64,000 nucleotides of DNA from Pristiophorus japonicus. Its lineage: Eukaryota. A program made the translations under genes and the position numbers. Below are positions 3,266-53,730 of the stretch, piece after piece (within the stretch, counting starts at the first letter, position 1; every line of letters begins with the position of its first letter). The stretch is from assembly GCF_044704955.1 (NCBI RefSeq), contig NC_091989.1:104656001-104720000 (forward strand), in the 5' to 3' direction. The notes under the pieces were generated by a model that was not told where the DNA came from, did no database searches, and saw only the letters and a program-made list of their open reading frames with translations.

Positions 3266-6200
3266 TGATATGTCCTTACTATACAGTATAAATGCACACA
3301 AGGCCCACACTTGAGAGAAGGTCACTCTGTGATCAGTTACCTTTATTACCAAAACCTCAAATGATGAAGATGATTGGAGCTTCCCCTTTTATACCTGAAA
3401 GTCCAGGTTCGGAGTGTCTCCCACAAGTTCACCCCCTTGTGGTCAATGTTCTCAAGGTGTACAACTTAGGTCAGCTTTTACATGGGTTACAATGATAGTT
3501 GAATACATGACATCACCTCCCCCCAAAGTCTTATTGGGATCACAGGTTGAGTCTCTCTGGTGATTTACGCTCCCTTGTAGAGCGCCTGAGTTGGGGCTCC
3601 GGTTGTTGGGCATAGGCCTGAGTGTCTGCTGTTTGCGGTGCCTCAGGCCTGTCTGGACTGCCCACAGTGACTGGGCTCTCCTCCCTTGGTTCCGTTGTTC
3701 GGTCACCTGTGGTGGAGTAAATTCTACATTGTGTTCTTCCTCTGCTTCTTCTATGGTGTTGCTGAACCTCCTTTTAGTTTGATCCACGTGTTTGCGGCAG
3801 ATTTGTCCATTGTTAAGTTTAACTACCAAAACCCTATTCCCCTCTTTGGCAATCACAGTGTCTGCAAGCCATTTGGGCCCTACAGTGTAATTAAGGACAA
3901 AAACAGGGTACATCGCGCCCTCGCATTCCTGTCATGGTAGTCACATTGTGACTGATGCCTGCTCTCAACAATTTCTTTCATAGTGGGATGTATAAGGGAT
4001 AACCTGGTTTTGAGCATCCTTTTAATTAGCAGCTCTGAGGGTGGAACCCCTGTGAGCGAGTGTGGTCGGGATCTGTTGGCCAACAGGAGGCATGATAAGC
4101 GGTTTTGTAGGGATCCCCCTTGGATTCTGAGCATCCCCTGTTTGATTATCTGCACTGCTCGTTCCACCTGGCCATTTGAGGCCGGCTTGAACGGTGCCGT
4201 TCTGACATGGTTGATTCCATTGCCTGTCATGAAGTCCTGGAATTCAGTGCTTGTGAAGCATGGGCCATTGTCGCCGACCAAGACATCCAGTAGATCATGG
4301 GTGGCTAACATTGCCCGTAGACTTTCTACCGTGGCAGAGGATGTGCTTGAATTTAAAATGGCACACTCAATCCATTTGGAGTAGGTGTCTACTACAACCA
4401 AAAACATTTTTCCCATGAAAGGACCTGTGTAGTCCACATGGATGCGTGACCATGGCTTGGTGGGCCAGGATCAGTGGCTAAGGGGGGGCTTCCCTGGGTG
4501 CGTTGCCCAGCTGAGCACATGTGTTGCACCTGCGAACACAAAGTTCCAGGTCTGCATCTATCCCTGGCCATCAAATGTGTGACCTGGCAATTGCCTTCAT
4601 CATGACAATGCCTGGGTGCTCATTGTGCCTTCATCATGACAATGCCCGGGTGCTCATTGTGAAGTTCTCTGATAAACACCTCTCTGCCCATCTGGGGCAT
4701 GACTACTCGGTTTCCCCACAGTAGGCAATCGGCCTGAATCGAGAGCTCATCCTTGTGCCTATGAAACAGTTTAAATTCCTCAGGGCATGCCCCGTACGTG
4801 GCTGCCCAGTCCCCATTCAGGACACATTTCTTAACTAAAGTCAGTAGCGGGTCTTTATTTGTCCAGACTTTAATTTGACGGGCTGTCACAGGTGAGCCTT
4901 CGCTTTTGAAAGTTTCAACAGCCATGACCATCTCAACATCATGCTCAGTTGCCCCCTCAGTGGTGGCTAGTGGGAGCCTGCTGAGTGCATTGATGCAGTT
5001 TTCAGTGCCCGGTCTGTGCCGAATTGTGTAGTCATAGGTGCCTAACGTGAGTGCCCACCTGCGTATGCGGGCTGATGCATTCGCATTTATGGCCTTGTTG
5101 TCGGCCAAAAGGGACGTTAGGGTTTTGTGATCTGTCTCCAGCTCAAATTTCCTGCCAAACAGGTACTGGTGCATTTTTTTTACTGCATATACAAATGCTA
5201 GCGCATCCTTTTCTACCATCCCGTAGCTCCTTTCTGCCTGGGACAGACTTCTGGAGGCATAAGCTACCGGCTATAACTGACCATTGGCATTCACATGCTA
5301 CAATACACACCTGACCCCATAGGACAAGTTTCTTACATGGGTCATATAACGTTAACAGTTTGTTGGGGCATAACAAATTGCCTGCTCTATCAAAAGTCTT
5401 TTCCTGGCTGTCCCCCCAGACCCAATCGCAACCTTTGCGTAGGAGCATGTGTAGCGGCTCTAACAGCGTGCTCAATTTGGGAAGAAAGTTACCAAAATAG
5501 TTCAGGAGCCCCAGGAACGAACGCAGCTCTGTCTTGTTACGGGGTCCGGGTGCTCTCTGGATCGCTTCCATTTTGGATGCAGTGGGTCTGATCCCGTCTG
5601 CTGCTACCCTCCTCCCCAGGAATTCTATCTCTGCAGCTAAGAAGACGCACTTCGCCTTTTTCAGTCGCAGCCCTACCGGTCCAGTCTGCGTAGCATCTCC
5701 TCCAGGTTGTGGAGGTGTTCTTCAGTATCACGACCCGTGATGAGAATGTCGTCTTGAAAAACCACCGTCCTTGGAATCGACTTGAGGAGGCTTTCCATAT
5801 TTTGCTGAAAGATCACGGCGGCCGAACGAATCCAGAACGGACATCTGTTATACTCAAACAACCCCTTGTGTGTCGTGATGGTGGTCAGCTTCTTCAACTC
5901 ACTCGCCAGCTCCTGGGTCATGTAAGCTGAGGTCAGGTACAATTTTGAAAAAAGTTTGCCACCGGATAACATCGCAAAGAGGTCTTCCACTCTCAGTAGT
6001 GGGTACTGGTCTTGGAGTGACACCCGATTGATGGTGGCCTTCTAATCACCACATATCCTGACCGACCCATCCGCGTTGAGCCCCGGCACGATCGGGTTTG
6101 CCCAGTCACTGAATTCGACTGGCGAGATGATGCCTTCCCTCAGCAGGCGGTCCAATTCGTATTCTTTTCCCTCATCATGTAAGGCCCCGCTTTGGCCTTG

Positions 6201-8018
6201 TGGTGTACTGGCCTGGCGTCCGGGCTTATGTGAATCACTACCTTGGCCCCCATGAAAGTGCCGATGCCGGGTTGAAATAATGAGTCAAATTTGTCCAGGA
6301 CCTGTGAGCATGATACTTGCTCCACAGAAGAAATTGCATTGACATCGTCCCATTTCCGTTCCACAACAGCAAGCCAACTCCTCCCGAGTAGTGCGGGACC
6401 ATCCCCCGGGACAATCCAGAGTGGCAACCTGTTCTCCGAATCTTTGTGGGTCACGACTGCCGTGGTGCTGCCTAGCACCGGAATGATCTCCTTTGTATAT
6501 GTCCGTAGCTGTGCGTCAATCAGCAATAATTTTGGCCTCCTGGCCTTGGACACCCACAACCTTTCGAACTGTTTGATACTCATCAGGGACTGGCTGGCCC
6601 CCGTGTCTAGCTCCATTAATACTGGGATGCCATTGAGGAGCACTTTCATCATTATCGGTGGCGTCCTGGTATATGAACTGTATATGTGCTCCACATGAAC
6701 TCGCTGAACTTCAGCTTCCAGCGATTTCCCCCAGTATTCATTTGGCCTCGTAGGGCTTACATCGGGCCCGTCCTTCTCGGACACCAACCTGGCTGCAGGT
6801 TTCCTGCACACATGCGCCAAGTGATCGCTGACGTTGCAGTTTCTGCAGGTATATTGCTGATACCTGCAAGCTCTGGCTGTGTGTTTGCCTCCACATCTCC
6901 AGCATGAGCTGGAGGCCCCATTGTTGGAAACTAAAGGTCCATTACCAGTCGATCGTCTCTGACTGTCTCTGTAACTGTCCTTAAGCGCACCATTAACAGG
7001 TATTGATGGCCCCATTTCTGGCCCCATTGTCCATTGCGATGGCATGAATCGCCGTTCAGCTAGCCATTGTCTCTGTTGAATTCCCCATTTGGGTTCGACT
7101 ACATGCTGGGCCATGTCCGATTGCCCTTGTCTGCCTAGAGAACTGTGTGCCGCATTAACAATGTTGACTCCCTGGTCGTTTGCCGCATTTGAGCCAAGAT
7201 TTTTGTCATACATCATTCTGGTCTCTTCCTCCTCTGAGATAAATGTCTGGGCTATCAGAGCCTCCGCTTCCAAGGTCAAGTCTTTGGTCTCAATCTGTTT
7301 CCTGAAAACCCCAGCATACCCGATGCCCTCAATAAAAAAGTCTCACAGCATCTCCGCTCTGCATGCATCTGGGAACTTACATTGGCTCGCCAGTCGCCGG
7401 AGATCTGCCTCGAAGTCTGGAACGGTTTGACCTTCTCGCCGCCGGTGCGTGTAAGACCGGTGTCTCGCCATGTGCATGCTGCTCGCCGGTTTAATGTGTT
7501 ACCCGATCTACTTACTGAGCTCTTCAACCGTCTTGTCCACCGGCTTCTCTGGCGCTAGAAGGTCCTTCATCAGGGAATAGGTTCTGGATCCACAAACCGT
7601 CAGGAGATGAGCCCTGTGTTTGTCGGCCGAATCCTGTCCCAACCATTCCTTAGTGACAAAACTTTGCTGTAGTCTCTCAATAAAGTCATTCCAATCATCA
7701 CCAATACAGTACCTCTCTTCTGTGCTGCTATTGGCCATGCTCGCATGGTTTAAATCCCAGTTTCTCATCGCCAATGATATGTCCTTACTATACAGTATAA
7801 ATGCACATGAGGCCCATACTTGAGAGAAGGTCACTCTGACCAGTTACCTTTATTACCAAGACCTCAAGTGATGAAGGTGGGTGGAGCTTCCCCTTTTATA
7901 CCTGAAAGTCCAGGTTAGGAGTGTCTCCCACAAGTTCGCCCCTTGTGGTCAATATTCTCAAGGTGTACAACTTAGGTCAGCTTATACATGGGTTACAATG
8001 ATAGTTGAATACATGACA
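3266..8018 (-). mobile_element. Full-length decayed Ty3/Gypsy element nested antisense in the 5' LTR of the outer element
   Basis: LTRs 7775-8018 and 3266-3512 (TGTCATG...ATATCA on minus), TSD ATAAC (3261-3265 and 8019-8023), PBS tggcgatgag about 7764-7773, PPT 3513-3530. Confidence 0.95.
3540..7740 (-). pseudogene. Inner Gypsy gag-pol, disrupted
   Basis: Zinc knuckles CWRCGGKH/CRNCNVSDH, protease LDTGA, RT VFQDDILITG, RNase H ETDHK, integrase DYTGP...DNGP...SNGQVER. A 34-bp tandem duplication (4592-4659) frameshifts the integrase N-terminus. Confidence 0.9.
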
Positions 8019-8198
8019 ATAACCACCAGAGAGCTTATCTCCTGGAGTACCTTGGGAGCACCTGCATATAAGGAGGCCTCACAGGCTGGAGAGGCACTCT
8101 GAGATCTGTAATAAAGGACTACGGTCACACTTAGTATCCAGCTTGAGTATCTAGTCTGACTCTTTATCCAAGATACAACAACTGGCAACGAGATACAG

Positions 8199-11100
8199 AT
8201 GACGAACCCCAATGCAACGATGCAGAGAATTGTGGGCATCCTGGAGAAATTTTCGGAGGAAGATGATTAGGAAACCTTCGTGTAGCGACTTGACTGATAC
8301 TTCGTGGCCCATGAGCTGGAAGGAGAAGGGAACGCTGCCAAATTAAGGGAAATCCTCCTCACCGTTTGCGGGGTACTAACGTATGGCCTCATGAAAAACC
8401 TGCTCACTCCAGTAAAACCCACAGACAAGTCATACGATGAGTTGTGCACTCTGGTCCAGGAGCATCTAAACCCGAAGGAAAGCATTTTGATGGTGAGATA
8501 TCGGTTCTACACATACAAGAGGTCTGAAGGAAGTGGCGAGCTACGTTGCCGAGCTAAGGCACCTTTCAAGACATTGCGAATTTGAAGGACACTTGGAGCA
8601 TATGCTCAGGGACTTCTTTGTACTTGGCATTAGCCATGAAGTGATATCAAGACCCCAAACCTGAGTAAAGCCATAGTGATAGCCCAGGCATTCATCTCCA
8701 CCAGTGACAATACCAAACAAATTTCCCAGCACACTAGTGCTGCTGCAAATACTGTGAACAAAGTAACGTTTTTGAATCAAAATGTACATGTCAGGACTTA
8801 CACGCCTGTAGCTGCATGTCCGCAGATGACTCAGAGTCCGCCATCAAGGATGGTGAATACAAGGCAATTAACACCTTGTTGGCGCAGCGGGGATGATCAT
8901 CGATTCCATTCATGCCGCTTCAAAGGAGACGTTTGCAAAGGCTGTGGAACAATGGGACACCTCCAACGTATATGCAGGCGAGCTGCAAACCCTGCTAATC
9001 CTGCAAACCACCATGTTGCAGAGGAGGACAGATCCACGGTGGATCATGACGAACCAGAGCCTCAGACCGAGGAGGCAGAGATATATGGGGTGCACACATT
9101 TACCATAAAGTGTCCCCCAATAATGCTGAAGGTTGAATTAAATGGACTCCCAGTGTCCAAGTTGTACACGGGCGCAAGCCAGTCCATAATGAGTAAACAG
9201 ACTTCGATAAGTTGTGGTGCAACAAGGCTTCAAGGCCAGTCCTGACTCCCATTCATAACAAAATTAGAACATACACAAAGGAACTGATTCCTGTAATTGG
9301 CAGAGCTACTGTGAAGGTCTCCTACGATGAAGCGGTGCACGATTTACCACTCTGGGTGGTACCAGGCAATGGCCCCACATTGTTCGGCAGGAGCTGGCTG
9401 GGAAAGATATGCTGGAACTGGGATGACATCCGAGCGCTTTCGTCCGTCGACGACACCTCATGTGCCCAGGTCCCTCGCTGTTCGAACCTAGTATCGGGAA
9501 GTTCCAAGGAGTAAAAGGGCAGATCCTTTTCATTCCGGGGTACGCAACCCATCCATCACAAGGCGAGAGCGGTACCTTACATGATGAGAGAGAGGGTGGA
9601 GATCGAGCTGGACAGGCTGCAATGAGAGGGCATCATTTTGCTGATCGAATTCAATGAGTGGGCCAGTCCAATTGTTCCAGTCCTCAAGGGAGACGGCACT
9701 GTCAGAATCTGTGGTGATTACAAAGTAACTATCAATCGTTTCTCACTGCAGGATCAATACCCACTACCAAAGGCAGACGACCTATTTGCGGCGCTGGCAG
9801 GAGGGAAACTCTTCACGAAGCTGGAATTGACCTCGGCCTACATGACGCAAGTGCTGGAGGAATCTTCTAAAGGCCTCACCTGCATCAACACGCACAAAGT
9901 CTTTTCATTTACAACAGATGCCTGTTTGGGATTCGATTGGCCGCGGCGATATTCCAGAGGAACATGGAAAGCTTGCTGAAGTTGTTCCCACACACCATGG
10001 TCTTCCAGGACGACTTCTTGGTTACAGGTCAGGATGCCGTTGAGCATCTGCAGAACCTGGAGGAGGTTCTTAGTCGACTTAATCATGTGGGGCTCAGGCT
10101 AAAATGCTCAAAATGCGTTTTCCTGGTGCCTGAAGTGGAGTTCCTGAGGAGAATAATCAGAGCGGACGGCATCAGGCCCACCGATTCGAAGACAGAGGCA
10201 ATCAAAACGCACAAGGACCACAGAACGTGATGGAGCTTCGGTCGTTTCTAGGACTCCTGAACTATTTTGGCAACTTCTTACCGGGTCTTAGCACATTGTT
10301 AGAACCCCTGCAATTTTTACTGCGTAAAGGAGATGAATGGGTATGGGGTAAAAGCCAAGAAAATGCCTTTGGGAAAGCTAGGAAGCTGTTATGTTCAAAC
10401 AAATTGCTTGTGTTGTAACGATCCATGTAAATATTTGGTATTAGCATGTGATGTGTCGTCGTATGGGGTCAGGTGTGTATTGCAACAAGCTAATGTATTT
10501 GGGAAATTACAACCGGTTGCTTATGCATCCAGAAGTCTGTCTAAGGCAGGGAGGGCCTACAGCATGATCGAAAAAGAAGCGTTAGCATGTGTTTGCGGGG
10601 TAAAGAAAATGCATCAATATCTGTTCGGGCTCAAATCTGAATTGAAACCAACCATAAGCCGCTTATATCCCTCTTTTCTGAAAATAAGGGGATAAATACA
10701 AATGCATCGGCCCGAATCCAGAGATGGGCGCTTACATTGTCCGCATACAACTACGCCATCCGCAACAGGCCAGGCACAGAAAACTGTGCCAATGCTCTCA
10801 GTAGGCTGCCATTGCCCACCACCGGGGTGGAGATGGCGCAGCCTGCAAATTTAATTATGGTATGGAAGCATTCGAGAGTGAGCAATCACCTGTTACCGCC
10901 CAACAGATTAGAATCTGGATGAACCAGGACCCCTAACTGTCCTTAGTAAAAAAAACTGTGTGCTCCATGGGAGTTGATCTAGTGTCCCGTTAGAGATGCA
11001 GGAAGAAATAAAGCTCTACCAGCGGTGCAAGGATGAAATGTCTATACAGGCAGACTGCCTCCTATGGGGTAATCGGGTAGTTGTGCCAAAAACGGGCAGG

Positions 11101-12230
11101 GACACTTTCATTAGTTATCTCCACAGTACCCACACAGGCATTGTAATGATGAAAGCGATAGCCAGATCCCACGTGTGGTGGCCCGGTATCGATGCAGACT
11201 TAGAGTCCTGCGTGCACAAATGTAACACATGTTCCCAGTTAAGCAATGCACCCAGGGAGGCGCCACTAAGTTTATGTTCTTGGCCCACCAAACCGTGGTC
11301 TAGGGTTCATGTCGACCATGCAGGCCCATTCTTGGGAAAAATATTTTTAGTGGTTGTCGATGCGTATTCCAAGTGGATTGAATGTGTGATAATGTCTGCA
11401 AGCACGTCTGCTGCCACCATTGAAAGCCTACGGGCTACCTGATGTCCTTGTGAGTGACAATGGGCCGTGCTTTACCAGTGCCGAATTCAAGGAATTCATG
11501 ACTCACAATGGGGTCAAACATGTCACATCTGCCCTAATTCAGCCAGCGTCCAATGGTTAGGCAGAACGAGCAGTTTAAACAATCAAGCAGAGCTTGAAAA
11601 GAGTAACTGAAGGTTCACTGCAGACTCGCTTATCGCGAGTCCTGCTTAGTTACCGCATAAGGCCTCACTCGCTCACCGGGGTCCCTCCCGTTGAACTGCT
11701 CATGAAAAGGGCACTTAAGACAAGGCTCTCGTTAGTCCACCCTGATCTACATGAACAGGTAGAGAGCAGGCGGCTTCAACAGAATACATATCATGATCGC
11801 GCAAATGTGTCACGCGAAATTGAAGTAAATGATCCTGTATTTGTGTTGAATTATGGACAAGGTCCCAAGTGGATTGCTGGCACTGTTTTGGCCAAAGAAG
11901 GGAGTCGGGTCTTTGTGGTCAAACTTGCAAATGGACTCACCTGCAGAAAATACTTGGACCAAACCAAACTCAGATTTACGGACTATCCAGAACAACCCAC
12001 AATAGACCCTACCTTTTTTGACCCTCCAACACACATACAAGTGGCAACCAACCCAGCGGTTGACCACGAAGCAGAACCCATCACCCACAGCAGCCCAGCA
12101 AGACTTACCACCCCCAGCAGCCCAGCAAGGCCAGCTGCACAGCAGCCCAGCAAGGGCCCAACAAACGACTCACCAACACCAGGGATGATCAACCAGGGAA
12201 AGGAAGGCCCCACATCGACTCATATTGTAA
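8199..12230 (+). pseudogene. Outer Gypsy gag-pol, disrupted by frameshifts and stops
   Basis: ORFs 8304, 8676, 9212, 9638, 9937, 10227, 10333, 10996 and 11594 tile gag, protease, RT, RNase H and integrase in Gypsy order. Confidence 0.9.
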
Positions 12231-12588
12231 ATAGTTACACTATTGACTTTGGGGGGGGGGGGGAGTGTTGTTATGTATGTGAGCCTGTAATTAACATGTC
12301 TAACCATCAGAGGGCTTGTCCCCTGGAGTCCCAAGGGATCCCACAATCCCTTCGGAGCACCTGTACATAAGGAGGCCTCACAGGCTGGAGAGGCACTCTG
12401 AGATCTGTAATAAAGGACTACGGTCACACCTTACTTTGAGCTTGAGTATCTAGTCTGACTCTTTATCCAAGATACAACAGTCATGAGATGCAATTAACCC
12501 CAAATATCATCAGGCAGACCATAATGGAGGTGATGAAAGGTACATGATTTAGGATTGATTCAAGGATTCTGAGTGGGAAAGCTCTATC

Positions 12589-50599: not shown

Positions 50600-50996
50600 T
50601 ATCTGCACTCCTCTAATTCTGTCCTCTTGAGCATCCCTGATTTTTAAAAAATCGCTCAACCATGGTGGCCTTGCATTTTGTTACCTCGGCCCTAGGCTCT
50701 AGAATTCCCTGCCTAAACCTCTCTGCCTCTCTACCTCTCTTTCCTCCTTCAAGACGCTCCTTAAAACCAACCTCTCTGACCTTGCATTTGGTCACCTGCC
50801 CCAATTTCTCCTTATGTGGTTCGGTGTCCAGTTCTTTGTCTCATGCTACTCCTGTGATGCACCTTGGGATGTTTTACTACATTACAGGCGCTATGTAATA
50901 AAAGTTGTTGTTGTTCTAATTTCCGTATTTGTAAAATTGGTGAATATTAAATCTAGAAATCTAACCAATATTAATGAAATAAGATGGCTCTCTTAC

Positions 50997-51113
50997 CTTT
51001 ACGTTTACATTTACAAAATTTACAACAAAGTATTGCTGCAATAATCAGGAGCAGCAGAGCTATTGCTCCACAGAGATAGATCCACCAAGGCAAAGGGTCA
51101 CTGACACCATTAT
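50997..51113 (-). CDS. Transmembrane exon of the Ig-superfamily protein
   Basis: Acceptor tgtcttacag|, donor |gtaaga, 117 bp, phase 1-1. Encodes DNGVSDPLPWWIYLCGAIALLLLIIAAILCCKFCKCKRK. Confidence 0.85.
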
Positions 51114-51856
51114 CTGTAAGACACATACAAAACAGAAAAATAAAGTCATTCACTTTCAGAAGGAAAATGACGGTGCAGCAGGTTAGCACTTTCTGCTTTC
51201 ACCTCTAACATCCCCAGCTCTTTCGGGTGGCTCTATACTGTTTATATTATGAATTCCCCACACAAAAACGGCACACCAACCTTCACACCCAATATTCAAA
51301 TTAATGCTCCTGGGACATAATGGTTGGTGCCAGAAGTGCCAAACTCATAAAATTACACCTCATGAGCCTTATGTGTAATGATTTAAGAATCTCAATCCAG
51401 TTTCTAGTTGGTGTGGGTCAGAACTGTCTTCAATTCAGTCCAGATTAGCAATAAATAATCTCTCAATTGGATGATCCAAAAGGTTGGCTTATGGGAGTGA
51501 ACTGCTGTTTCCCAGTTACTTTCACTCTTGCCTTAATCTTTCATAATTACCATCTGCAAATTACCATGTCAATTATGTCATGTGGTCCTCAGTACTTACC
51601 ATCTAAGGTCTGTAATTCAACCACTCAAAAAGGCAGACTGGGACAATGGGCAACACCTGACTCTGGTTCCTCTTATTCGTCTATCCACTGTTGACTGTAG
51701 AGCACAACGGTTATTTTATTTTTTGCCCTTTTTTTGTCTTCTGCCTTTTCACTACTGTTGTTCAGATCTGACCTTACAGAGCAAAAGGTCACAAGTTCAA
51801 CTCCTGGCCTGTGTTAGGTTAGCTAGACAGAATAGCTGTTGAGGTGCTACAAGTTT

Positions 51857-51993
51857 GGGAGGAGTAACTATGATTCTCTTCGAGGAGCCTAGGGTTACAA
51901 AGTAGCTGTGACCATCTTTTGAGTTCTAAATCACAGTGACTCTTACCTCCACGTGGTCCTGCTGGGCAACATTTCGATGTTGGCTAAATGACT
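51857..51993 (+). ncRNA. HDV-like self-cleaving ribozyme of R2 type, partly decayed
   Basis: P3 ACC/GGU (51945-47, 51955-57), L3 UCCACGU, P1' CCUGCU, GG (P1.1), P4 CAACAU-UUCG-AUGUUG (51967-51982), J4/2 GCUAA with putative catalytic C51984, P2' AUGACU. Confidence 0.72.
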
Positions 51994-52898
51994 GGCCGAG
52001 TAACTCAAAATAGGCAGGGTAACCATAACTGCCTCAACCTCTCAAAAAGTTACCGCAGGGCTTTTGAGTAGGTCTCAGCCAGTAAGTCTTCCGTCTTAAT
52101 GTTGGAGAGTCAAGGGTTACGAGGTAGCTGTGCCATCTTTTGAGTACTAAGTCTCAGTGAGTCATACTTGCACGCGGTCCGTCAGATTGACTGGCCGAGT
52201 AAATCAGAGTGGCTTCCCGTAGGAGGGGATAGCAAACCTAAGAAAAATGGTCCGTTTTGATTTCCGTGGTGTTCAAACTGGGATGGGGCCCAGACAAAAG
52301 CCCTGTGTCAAATTTGCTGATGGGGGTCAGACAGGGCTGACAAACCAGACTCTGCCAATTAAGACCGTGACCAGGCGAGAGTAAAGACAATTTAAATGCA
52401 ATCAACAGCAGTTAATCAACTCGGGTTACCCTAGATAGGAAGTCGCCACTATTCCAAGGGATCAGGGGCCACGAAAAGATTCTCCAAGTTGACAATGTCA
52501 AAAAGGACACTGGGGAAAAGCACTTCTGTGTTATCAAAAACTGTCCGAGATTTCAAGACCACAGCCCCAAGATGCGGGTATGGAACCAGGTCGGATTCCA
52601 CACGGAGTGTAAAAAGTTGTATTGTTTGTTATAGTAACCTGTGTCTGTTATAATAAAACTTCGTACGCATCAGTGCGACTCCGTTTCGCCTCTACCTTGG
52701 TGGTGGCTTCCATGCTTGGTGAGACCTGTGTTGTCCGCCCATATTCATTAAAGATCTACCCGGTTCTTCCTAACACCCGAGTATCCGCAGCCCTCCTTAG
52801 CCTGTGATGATTCGCTGGACTTTGCACCGTGGATAAGCCATGTAAAGACTCGAAATAGGCATTCTTTTAATGTGACCCGTCGCACAACTGTACCCAAA
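51857..52898 (+). mobile_element. Probable non-autonomous R2-derived retroelement (SIDE-like) outside rDNA
   Basis: 5' leader matches 28S rRNA upstream of the R2 site (ggagtaactatgattctctt 51861-51880, 19/20). HDV-like ribozyme core follows. 3' end AAA abuts TAGCC (52899-52903). Confidence 0.72.
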
Positions 52899-52979
52899 TA
52901 GCCTCATTGCCGTTCATCCAGGGAGGGGAAAAGAACAGATCAGCCAAAGCTCATGATTTATTTCCAGTGATACTGGAAT

Positions 52980-53066
52980 TTGTGTGTGTTTTGTGTGTGT
53001 GTTTGTGTGTGCAACCATGTATGTGTGTGCATGTGTGTATGTGAATATGTGTGCATATGGGTGTGC
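52980..53066. repeat. Imperfect (GT)n microsatellite
   Basis: Run of tgtgtg units with interruptions. Confidence 0.85.
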
Positions 53067-53433: not shown

Positions 53434-53730
53434 CTGCAATGCCGACCGTGTAATTGACCCAAGTTGGACCCGTGAGGGTAGGGTGAGATACCTCACAAAT
53501 ATAAACAGTCCCAATCTGAATAGGCGGTATCTCTTCCAAATAACTGAAAGCTTCATATAGTCCCTCAGTATTCAGCTCAACGAATTTTGTTACTCCAGTC
53601 GCAACTTCTTGACCATCTTTACGCCAAGCAATGGTGTGATCAGCAGGGTAGAACCCAGACGTTTTACACAAACACATTAGAGAACCATTTGCAAACAGGG
53701 TTGGAAAAATCTTCAGAGGTTCTGGAGAAG
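53434..53730 (-). CDS. Ig C1-set domain exon (SIRP/NCR3LG1/tapasin-like architecture; family unresolved)
   Basis: Acceptor ttttctatag|, donor |gtagga, 297 bp, phase 1-1. Motifs CKTSGFYP, AWRKDG, GLYEAFSYL, YICEVSHPTL; sequons NGS and NYT. Confidence 0.9.

What the first reader, a model, noticed from the sequence alone, without database searches (positions are those of the whole stretch)
51857..52898. Ribozyme-led, non-coding R2-derived element retrotransposed outside rDNA, into an intron of an Ig-superfamily gene
Seen: a ~1.04 kb insert splits a SINE-like repeat and has no long ORF, no clear TSD and no TG...CA ends. Its first 29 nt (gggaggagtaactatgattctcttcgagg) align to GGCGGGAGTAACTATGACTCTCTTAAGG, and its end is cccAAA|TAGCC. 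Established: that 28-mer is the 28S rRNA sequence directly upstream of the R2 insertion site; many R2 ribozymes cleave inside this upstream 28S segment, so the RNA keeps it; R2 3' junctions are followed by TAGCC; short internally deleted R2 elements (SIDEs) are known in insect rDNA. Inference: this is a SIDE-like parasite of R2 in a cartilaginous fish, mobilised in trans to a non-rDNA site. Faint peptide echoes of the R2 endonuclease C-terminus (KPD near 52341, MSKRTL near 52495) fit but are weak. I do not know of a described family like this, but cannot search.
Basis: partly seen in the sequence, partly recalled or inferred. Interest (0 to 1): 0.9.

Follow-up and report, generated by a model that had tools for sequence, protein, structure and literature searches.

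The report
R2 parasite escaped from ribosomal DNA
A decayed 1-kb repeat that begins with a piece of the 28S ribosomal RNA gene and a predicted self-cutting RNA fold lies at about 40 scattered places in this genome, mostly at look-alikes of the R2 jumping gene's landing site, so it is likely a short parasite that R2 once copied out of the ribosomal genes, which would make it a natural record of where R2 lands off target.

Summary
Window 51857-52898 is one copy of an old dispersed family: about 40 loci, a lower bound, 66-78% identical. It starts with the 28S -28..-5 leader (21 of 24 bases). Next comes an HDV-like R2 ribozyme fold, present twice in tandem, then decayed sequence with no reverse transcriptase, ending CCCAAA. 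Of 30 independent 3' junctions, 3 sit at the exact R2 site of 28S pseudogenes, 17 at one site (TAAGA|TAGTCA) in a LINE, and 10 elsewhere. TAG follows in 21 and a one-base variant in 9. Of 22 readable 5' ends, 21 carry the leader. The window copy splits a host repeat without a target duplication and lies between two exons of an Ig C1-set gene. Not shown: the parent R2 (none found), ribozyme activity, covariation, and the endonuclease echo (all protein searches blank). Verdict: a likely SIDE-type R2 parasite, with mini and older subfamilies. I found SIDEs described only in Drosophila rDNA. The scan earlier noted lone orphan R2 ribozymes and tails in other genomes, but no such family. New variant of a known kind; extinct.

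The parts
51857..52898 (+). Whole non-autonomous element (one decayed copy of the family)
   Evidence: Ends defined by other copies; collinear over most or all of its length with 9 aligned copies
51857..51880 (+). 28S rRNA-derived leader, positions -28 to -5 of the R2 site; its first 6 bases form the predicted P1 5' strand
   Evidence: 21 of 24 identical to the genome's 28S, 0 in 100 shuffles
51939..51993 (+). HDV-like ribozyme core, unit 1: P2 51939-44/51988-93; P3 51945-47/51955-57; L3 51948-54; P1 3' strand 51958-63; P1.1 GG 51964-65; P4 51967-82; candidate catalytic C 51984
   Evidence: 20 of 23 pairs hold in this copy (read); 79% of cells paired over 17 copies against 24-40% for slid controls; 51946-51956 is 10 of 11 identical to the published R2 core CCUCCUCGUGG
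52013..52206 (+). Tandem second leader-plus-ribozyme unit with an altered L3; likely inactive
   Evidence: Direct repeats about 221 nt apart; second model match 52082-52214, 70.8 bits; degenerate leader at 52013-52030 read by eye
52280..52600 (+). Decayed stretch with possible remnants of an R2 endonuclease C-terminus (KPD codons 52342-52350; MSKRTL from 52495)
   Evidence: Translations; resemblance by eye and recall only; searches blank
52601..52898 (+). 3' region, the likely R2-protein recognition end; the last 120 nt are the most conserved; ends CCCAAA
   Evidence: 77-87% identity in the 39 other matches; junction alignments
51765..51856 (+). Left part of the host repeat (SINE-like; name recalled), ending CAAG plus extra T
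52899..52990 (+). Right part of the host repeat, starting TAGCC (the R2 +1..+5 look-alike)
53450..53730 (-). Host gene exon, immunoglobulin C1-set domain
   Evidence: Pfam PF07654, E 1.3e-11
50997..51113 (-). Likely next host exon (transmembrane-like), which places the element antisense in an intron
   Evidence: ORF 50971-51198 minus; splice sites read by eye

Best explanation
This is a decayed copy of a short, non-coding repeat family that begins with a 28S leader and a predicted R2-type ribozyme and was likely copied in trans by an R2 protein, mostly into look-alikes of the R2 target outside the ribosomal genes. Inferred mechanism: a master copy sat at the R2 site of an rDNA unit and was co-transcribed with 28S. 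The ribozyme cut the RNA at -28, leaving the leader on the transcript. An R2 protein bound the 3' end, nicked TAAG(G/A)|TAG(C/T)C-like DNA and reverse-transcribed from the nick. At true 28S sites the leader annealed, giving a seamless join (L012) or a leader duplication (L024). At other sites it could not anneal, so it was left in the genome as a foreign tag with variable host deletions. An abundant LINE happens to carry TAAGA|TAGTCA and became the main sink. The window copy landed at CAAG|TAGCC in a host repeat. The family and, as far as the assembly shows, its helper R2 are extinct. Shown: anatomy, junctions, targets, spread as a unit. Inferred: cleavage, the rDNA master, the R2 helper.
For: Family with fixed ends and no reverse transcriptase. 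Leader in 21 of 22 readable 5' ends, 19 of them in non-28S hosts. The -28 site is the commonest R2 cleavage site and leader duplications are a known R2 junction type (PMC3774820). All five helices can be laid and the core matches the published motif. Four independent insertions at the exact R2 site of 28S pseudogenes: L024 and L020 (duplicated as L103) with both junctions, L012 with the 5' and L134 with the 3' junction. An empty LINE site reads ATAAGA|TAGTCA (L028), matching 28S TTAAGG|TAGCCA. LINE-site copies have different 5' junctions, and an older subfamily uses the same site (L140). R2 occurs in sharks and rays (PMC13188248 passages).
Against: No autonomous R2 sharing the ends was found. 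There are 436 intact target sites, no 3' junction in the rDNA by the pattern (which would miss an element ending in G), and no young ribozyme core. No covariation above shuffled columns (258 of 500 shuffles reach the observed pairing), and the structure was drawn from these same sequences. The 11-mer core alone is not above chance in the window (2 matches, 0.77 expected). The endonuclease remnant was not recovered by six searches. Nine of 30 3' flanks are one base off TAG. Part of the T/TAG could be carried by the RNA; host origin is shown only for the window host and the LINE host.
Confidence: 0.82

Rival explanations
1. The helper was an R2 lineage with relaxed or shifted specificity (R2NS-like, or retargeted to the LINE site), so the dispersed copies are on-target for that helper rather than off-target for an rDNA-specific R2.
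For: 27 of 30 3' junctions lie outside 28S and 17 are at one LINE position, used by two subfamilies. A divergent leader-plus-ribozyme fragment with a possible ORF start also sits in that LINE (L147). Non-specific R2 families exist in flatworms (PMC5035012 section 13).
Against: Four insertions hit the exact 28S site in rare pseudogenes. rDNA turnover removes old insertions (PMC3414825), so today's dispersed copies are a biased remnant. The copy number of the LINE site was not measured, so abundance alone may explain the hot spot.
Confidence: 0.25
2. The element became independent of rDNA: because every full copy carries its own leader, it could cut itself out of any read-through transcript (LINE or host), so dispersed copies served as masters.
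For: The leader completes P1 inside the element. LINE-site copies lie in the LINE's sense direction (read by eye). Several structural variants spread: tandem, single-ribozyme (L110), mini of about 340 nt (L099) and older (L134, L136, L140).
Against: The orientation follows from the target match. No diagnostic descent from a dispersed copy was shown, as no tree could be built. 5' leaders stay close to 28S (L084 is 24 of 24), as expected if they are renewed from rDNA.
Confidence: 0.15
3. The copies spread passively, by segmental duplication or inside a LINE transcript, from a few R2 fossils.
For: True for some: the C20/unplaced cluster (L014-L019, L021-L023, L026, L027 and others), the pair L097/L102 and the pair L020/L103 share flanks and mutations.
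Against: After merging these, 30 distinct 3' junctions remain in at least 12 host contexts, and LINE-site copies differ at the 5' junction and in subfamily.
Confidence: 0.05
4. Solo LTR or DNA-transposon derivative.
For: TGGG...CCCA can be read at 51856/52896, and an AATAAA lies near 52652.
Against: No target duplication; the 5' T is not conserved; the ends are a 28S leader and an A-run; the target is sequence-specific.
Confidence: 0.01

Closest known systems
R2 SIDE (Short Internally Deleted Element) of Drosophila willistoni (PMC3414825)
   Same: Short and non-coding; R2 ribozyme at the 5' end; R2-type 3' junction at the 28S R2 site; needs R2 protein in trans
   Different: Described SIDEs lie in the rDNA locus and Drosophila R2 cleaves at the element's own 5' end. 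This family carries a 24-nt 28S leader, has a tandem second ribozyme, survives at dispersed sites (27 of 30 junctions outside 28S), has a hot spot in a LINE, and has several subfamilies
R2 elements with ribozyme cleavage at 28S -28 (zebra finch, silkmoth, earwig, sow bug; PMC3774820)
   Same: Leader from -28, P1 formed with 28S bases, core motif, leader duplication at a 28S junction; a 4-nt 28S deletion as in sow bug; 3' junction AAA|TAGCC as printed for R2Tg (PMC12222951)
   Different: No reverse transcriptase or intact ORF; not in the present rDNA array
R2NS non-specific R2 families of flatworms (PMC5035012)
   Same: R2-lineage elements outside 28S
   Different: Those are autonomous and reported as non-specific; this family is non-autonomous and keeps a target motif
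SINE28 (mammalian SINE with 28S-derived sequence; seen only as cited in PMC5786205 and PMC10946416)
   Same: Dispersed non-autonomous repeat holding 28S sequence
   Different: Here the 28S piece is the R2 ribozyme leader and the targets are R2-like; no sequence comparison with SINE28 was made

Membership tests
R2 SIDE | [quoted passage not shown] | tested here: met
   Five helices, 79% of cells paired against 24-40% slid; core 10 of 11; no covariation beyond shuffles
R2 SIDE | Ribozyme self-cleavage | not testable with these tools
   Needs a cleavage assay; the window copy has 3 broken pairs of 23
R2 SIDE | Short, no reverse transcriptase, amplified as a unit | tested here: met
   ten collinear copies of about 1.0-1.2 kb once later insertions are set aside
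R2 SIDE | Insertion at the R2 site of 28S with R2-type junctions | tested here: met
   4 independent insertions in 28S pseudogenes
R2 SIDE | Residence in the rDNA array today | tested here: not met
   No family match on the rDNA contigs listed; no non-G 3' junction there; assemblies can miss such units
R2 SIDE | [quoted passage not shown] | tested here: inconclusive
   No autonomous R2 found in G000; no R2 sequence was available to compare
Autonomous R2 | Single ORF with zinc finger/Myb, reverse transcriptase and restriction-like endonuclease | tested here: not met
   No long ORF; remnant searches blank
Solo LTR / ERV | Conserved TG...CA ends with a 4-6 bp target duplication | tested here: not met
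Classical SINE | tRNA, 5S or 7SL head with a Pol III promoter | tested here: not met
   The head is 28S-derived; no Rfam family at gathering score in the window
Named Dfam/Repbase family | Match to a deposited consensus | not testable with these tools
   No repeat library on hand

The most novel reading that the evidence does not exclude
A vertebrate R2 parasite that left the rDNA altogether: by keeping the 28S leader inside itself it carried a complete ribozyme, could cut itself out of LINE or host read-through transcripts, and used a site in an abundant LINE as a second home, served by an R2 lineage with a shifted target.
Probability: 0.2. Interest if true: 0.85.

Novelty: new variant of a known kind. 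Interest (0 to 1): 0.64.

Why it matters
SIDEs were described from Drosophila rDNA. My seven literature searches found no vertebrate or dispersed example; Repbase, Dfam and supplementary files could not be seen. If right, this extends R2 parasitism to a vertebrate and shows it lasted long enough to form subfamilies. Because rDNA purges its insertions while dispersed ones persist, the 27 non-28S junctions are a germ-line record of what an R2 protein accepts off target. That bears on R2-based gene insertion, where off-target sites in cells were reported to share little beyond the bases just downstream of the nick (PMC11371274 passage). Here the sites also keep upstream TAAG (exact in 7 of 19 non-28S 5' junctions), and one repeat-borne look-alike takes 17 of 30 insertions. 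The family is dead and low in copy number, which limits its weight for the host.

Tried and rejected
Solo-LTR reading: rejected. Protein proof of the endonuclease remnant: PDB, Pfam (52), 1.84 billion representatives (77) and the word-index search (102) all blank; the possible ORF start in L151 also found nothing. Search for a parent R2: patterns at both junction types, the ribozyme core (63), DNA probes of both ends and of the older subfamily (28, 39, 118), and ORF lists of 20 of the 30 kb fetched downstream of L147 (133, 134; L153 only scanned with the RNA model, 137); none gave a reverse transcriptase tied to the family. Covariation test: negative (58). Host-repeat search by DNA (84) and by a tight two-gap pattern (90) found nothing; a looser pattern worked (92). 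A weak likeness between the element's last 60 nt and 28S downstream sequence appeared in one alignment (83); it was not tested and is not used. Sequencing runs: holders were of one organism only and no RNA holder was listed (93); no reads were laid, so empty alleles and expression are untested. Multi-locus Rfam scans failed, so 28S was confirmed by Rfam for L045, L024/L128 and L107 only; L012, L020 and L134 were matched to the genome's 28S by alignment or by eye. No scripts ran, so there is no tree, age estimate or site logo, and junction counts are by hand. Supplementary files of the papers were closed. Left out of the 3' count because the end is interrupted or not held: L007, L010, L012, L029, L068, L090, L093, L108, L136, L137/L138, L139, L143, L145, L147. 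Merged as duplicates: L058 with L009, L103 with L020, the C20/unplaced cluster as one. Left out of the 5' count: the cluster, L136 (no leader seen), L139, L134 and L147.

Full report
Observation. The insert is real and its limits are right. A search of the genome with 51857-52898 gave 56 matches, with the long ones 66-78% identical. With 600 bases of flank added, homology stopped at both ends. No ORF over 72 codons lies inside. The genome's own 28S was found by pattern (436 intact R2 target sites) and confirmed by Rfam (L045). Window 51857-51880 matches it from -28 to -5 at 21 of 24 bases, with no such match in 100 shuffles. The element ends CCCAAA, followed by TAGCC.

Host site. Both flanks align end to end with uninterrupted copies of a host repeat. 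The empty-site pattern occurs 184 times against 2 for the reversed control, mostly with three bases where the window has the insert. So the site was CAAG|TAGCC, with no duplication and two or three extra T at the 5' side. Calling this repeat a SINE is recall. A C1-set exon lies at 53450-53730 on the minus strand and a transmembrane-like exon at about 50997-51113, so the insert is likely intronic and antisense. The genome is 5.9 Gb; that it is a cartilaginous fish is an inference from recalled repeat types, not a result.

Ribozyme. An HDV-like double pseudoknot can be laid over the 5' end. P1 pairs the first six leader bases with 51958-51963. P2, P3, P1.1 and P4 lie in 51939-51993, and a candidate catalytic C is at 51984. 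In the window copy 20 of 23 pairs hold. Over 17 copies, 79% of cells pair, against 24-40% when partners are slid. The same call shows no covariation above column shuffles (258 of 500), as expected for copies decaying from one master; it does not prove selection on the fold. Bases 51946-51956 match 10 of 11 of the motif that PMC5035012 gives as the most conserved R2 ribozyme sequence (passage). Alone that match is not above chance; its place between the predicted P2 and P1 strands is what counts. PMC3774820 (two text parts and passages) reports -28 as the commonest cleavage site, P1 formed with 28S bases, and leader duplications at 28S junctions. A second leader-plus-ribozyme unit follows in tandem, with a changed L3. 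L011 starts at that second unit with its own leader, and L110 has a single unit. No copy keeps an intact core: three matches with one mismatch each.

Junctions. I merged duplicated loci and counted by hand. Thirty independent 3' junctions could be read. Three run into 28S at +1 (L020, L024, L134). Seventeen run into one position of a LINE; its similarity to LINE ORF2 ends is visible, and the name CR1 is recall. Ten run into other hosts. TAG follows the A-run in 21, allowing one extra or changed base at the end of the run in five of them; a one-base variant follows in 9. An empty LINE copy reads ATAAGA|TAGTCA (L028), against 28S TTAAGG|TAGCCA. Of 22 readable 5' ends, 21 carry part or all of the leader. 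The exception, L103/L130, is a 5'-truncated copy fused to 28S at a shared TAAG. L024 shows a leader duplication inside a 28S pseudogene (Rfam), and L012 joins 28S seamlessly. In non-28S hosts the leader is a foreign tag, and host sequence ends on exact TAAG in 7 of 19. LINE-site copies differ in how much host is lost at the 5' side, so they are separate events. Fourteen loci had no readable 3' end and are listed under Tried and rejected.

Family. Ten aligned copies are collinear from ribozyme to 3' end with no room for a reverse transcriptase, so the short form itself was copied. There is also a mini form of about 340 bases (L099). An older, more diverged subfamily uses both the 28S site (L134) and the LINE site (L140). 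A third, divergent leader-plus-ribozyme fragment is followed by a possible ORF start (L147); it may be the 5' end of an autonomous R2, but no continuation was seen and its peptide found no relatives. Most copies are broken by later insertions, which points to old age. About 40 loci is a lower bound, since only the best candidates are scored.

What failed. No parent R2 was found. The rDNA shows no matching junction (its single hit is a point-mutated pseudogene) and no family match. PMC13188248 (passages) reports R2 in sharks and rays and warns that assemblies miss R2. The KPD and MSKRTL echoes fit an endonuclease C-terminus by eye and recall, but six searches were blank, so this point stays open.

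Mechanism. Shown: leader, predicted fold, lack of coding capacity, blunt R2-type junctions, exact use of the 28S R2 site, and a shared target motif elsewhere. Inferred: a master in rDNA, release by self-cleavage at -28, and target-primed reverse transcription by an R2 protein in trans, with spill onto look-alike sites. I put 0.82 on R2-dependent, SIDE-type spread. The main open question is whether the dispersed copies are off-target spill preserved because rDNA purges its own insertions, or the work of a helper with a shifted target (0.25), possibly with dispersed masters (0.15). These two rivals are variants of the main reading, not exclusive of it.

Known versus new. It works like the R2 SIDE of PMC3414825 (first text part and passages). 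It meets the fold, size and target criteria, fails present residence in rDNA, and could not be tested for 3' identity to a partner R2, so I call it SIDE-like rather than a proven member. Searches returned no vertebrate or dispersed SIDE. Term look-ups in PMC13580325, PMC5786205 and PMC10946416 (passages) showed none either. PMC12222951 and PMC11371274 were read as passages. Earlier scan notes describe a lone orphan R2 ribozyme and a stray R2 tail in other genomes; nothing matched this sequence or genome.

Verdict. A real, extinct, previously unreported (as far as I could search) dispersed R2-dependent short element. New variant of a known kind; interest 0.64.

Noticed in passing
L147:1496-1920 (G000:C11:131575860 on, +): Divergent 28S leader plus ribozyme-like segment followed by a possible ORF start, inside a LINE and cut off after about 420 bases; candidate 5' relic of an autonomous R2.
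   Followed up: partly
L099:1355-1691 (G000:C7:82252750-82253090, +): Mini element of about 340 bases: full leader to -1, one ribozyme and the last 80 or so bases of the family's 3' end; a minimal natural R2 template candidate.
   Followed up: partly
L134, L136-L143, L145: Older subfamily with a longer segment upstream of the ribozyme core and a somewhat longer endonuclease-like stretch.
   Followed up: partly
L014-L019, L021-L023, L026, L027, L069-L077 (C20 and unplaced contigs): One insertion multiplied by duplication of a large repeated region; a marker for that cluster's history.
   Followed up: no
window 50997-51113 and 53450-53730, minus: Exons of an Ig-superfamily membrane gene (C1-set domain, transmembrane segment); identity not worked out.
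   Followed up: partly
window 3450-12400: Two decayed LTR-retrotransposon-like coding regions in opposite orientations.
   Followed up: no
G000 C37:26.87-27.07 Mb, C1, C5, C10, C36: Intact R2 target sites on chromosome-scale contigs, with 23-37 kb spacing on C37 against about 14-17 kb for most units on small contigs.
   Followed up: no
window 52845-52898: Weak likeness of the element's last bases to 28S sequence downstream of the R2 site in one alignment; some fish R2 have 28S-like 3' UTRs.
   Followed up: no
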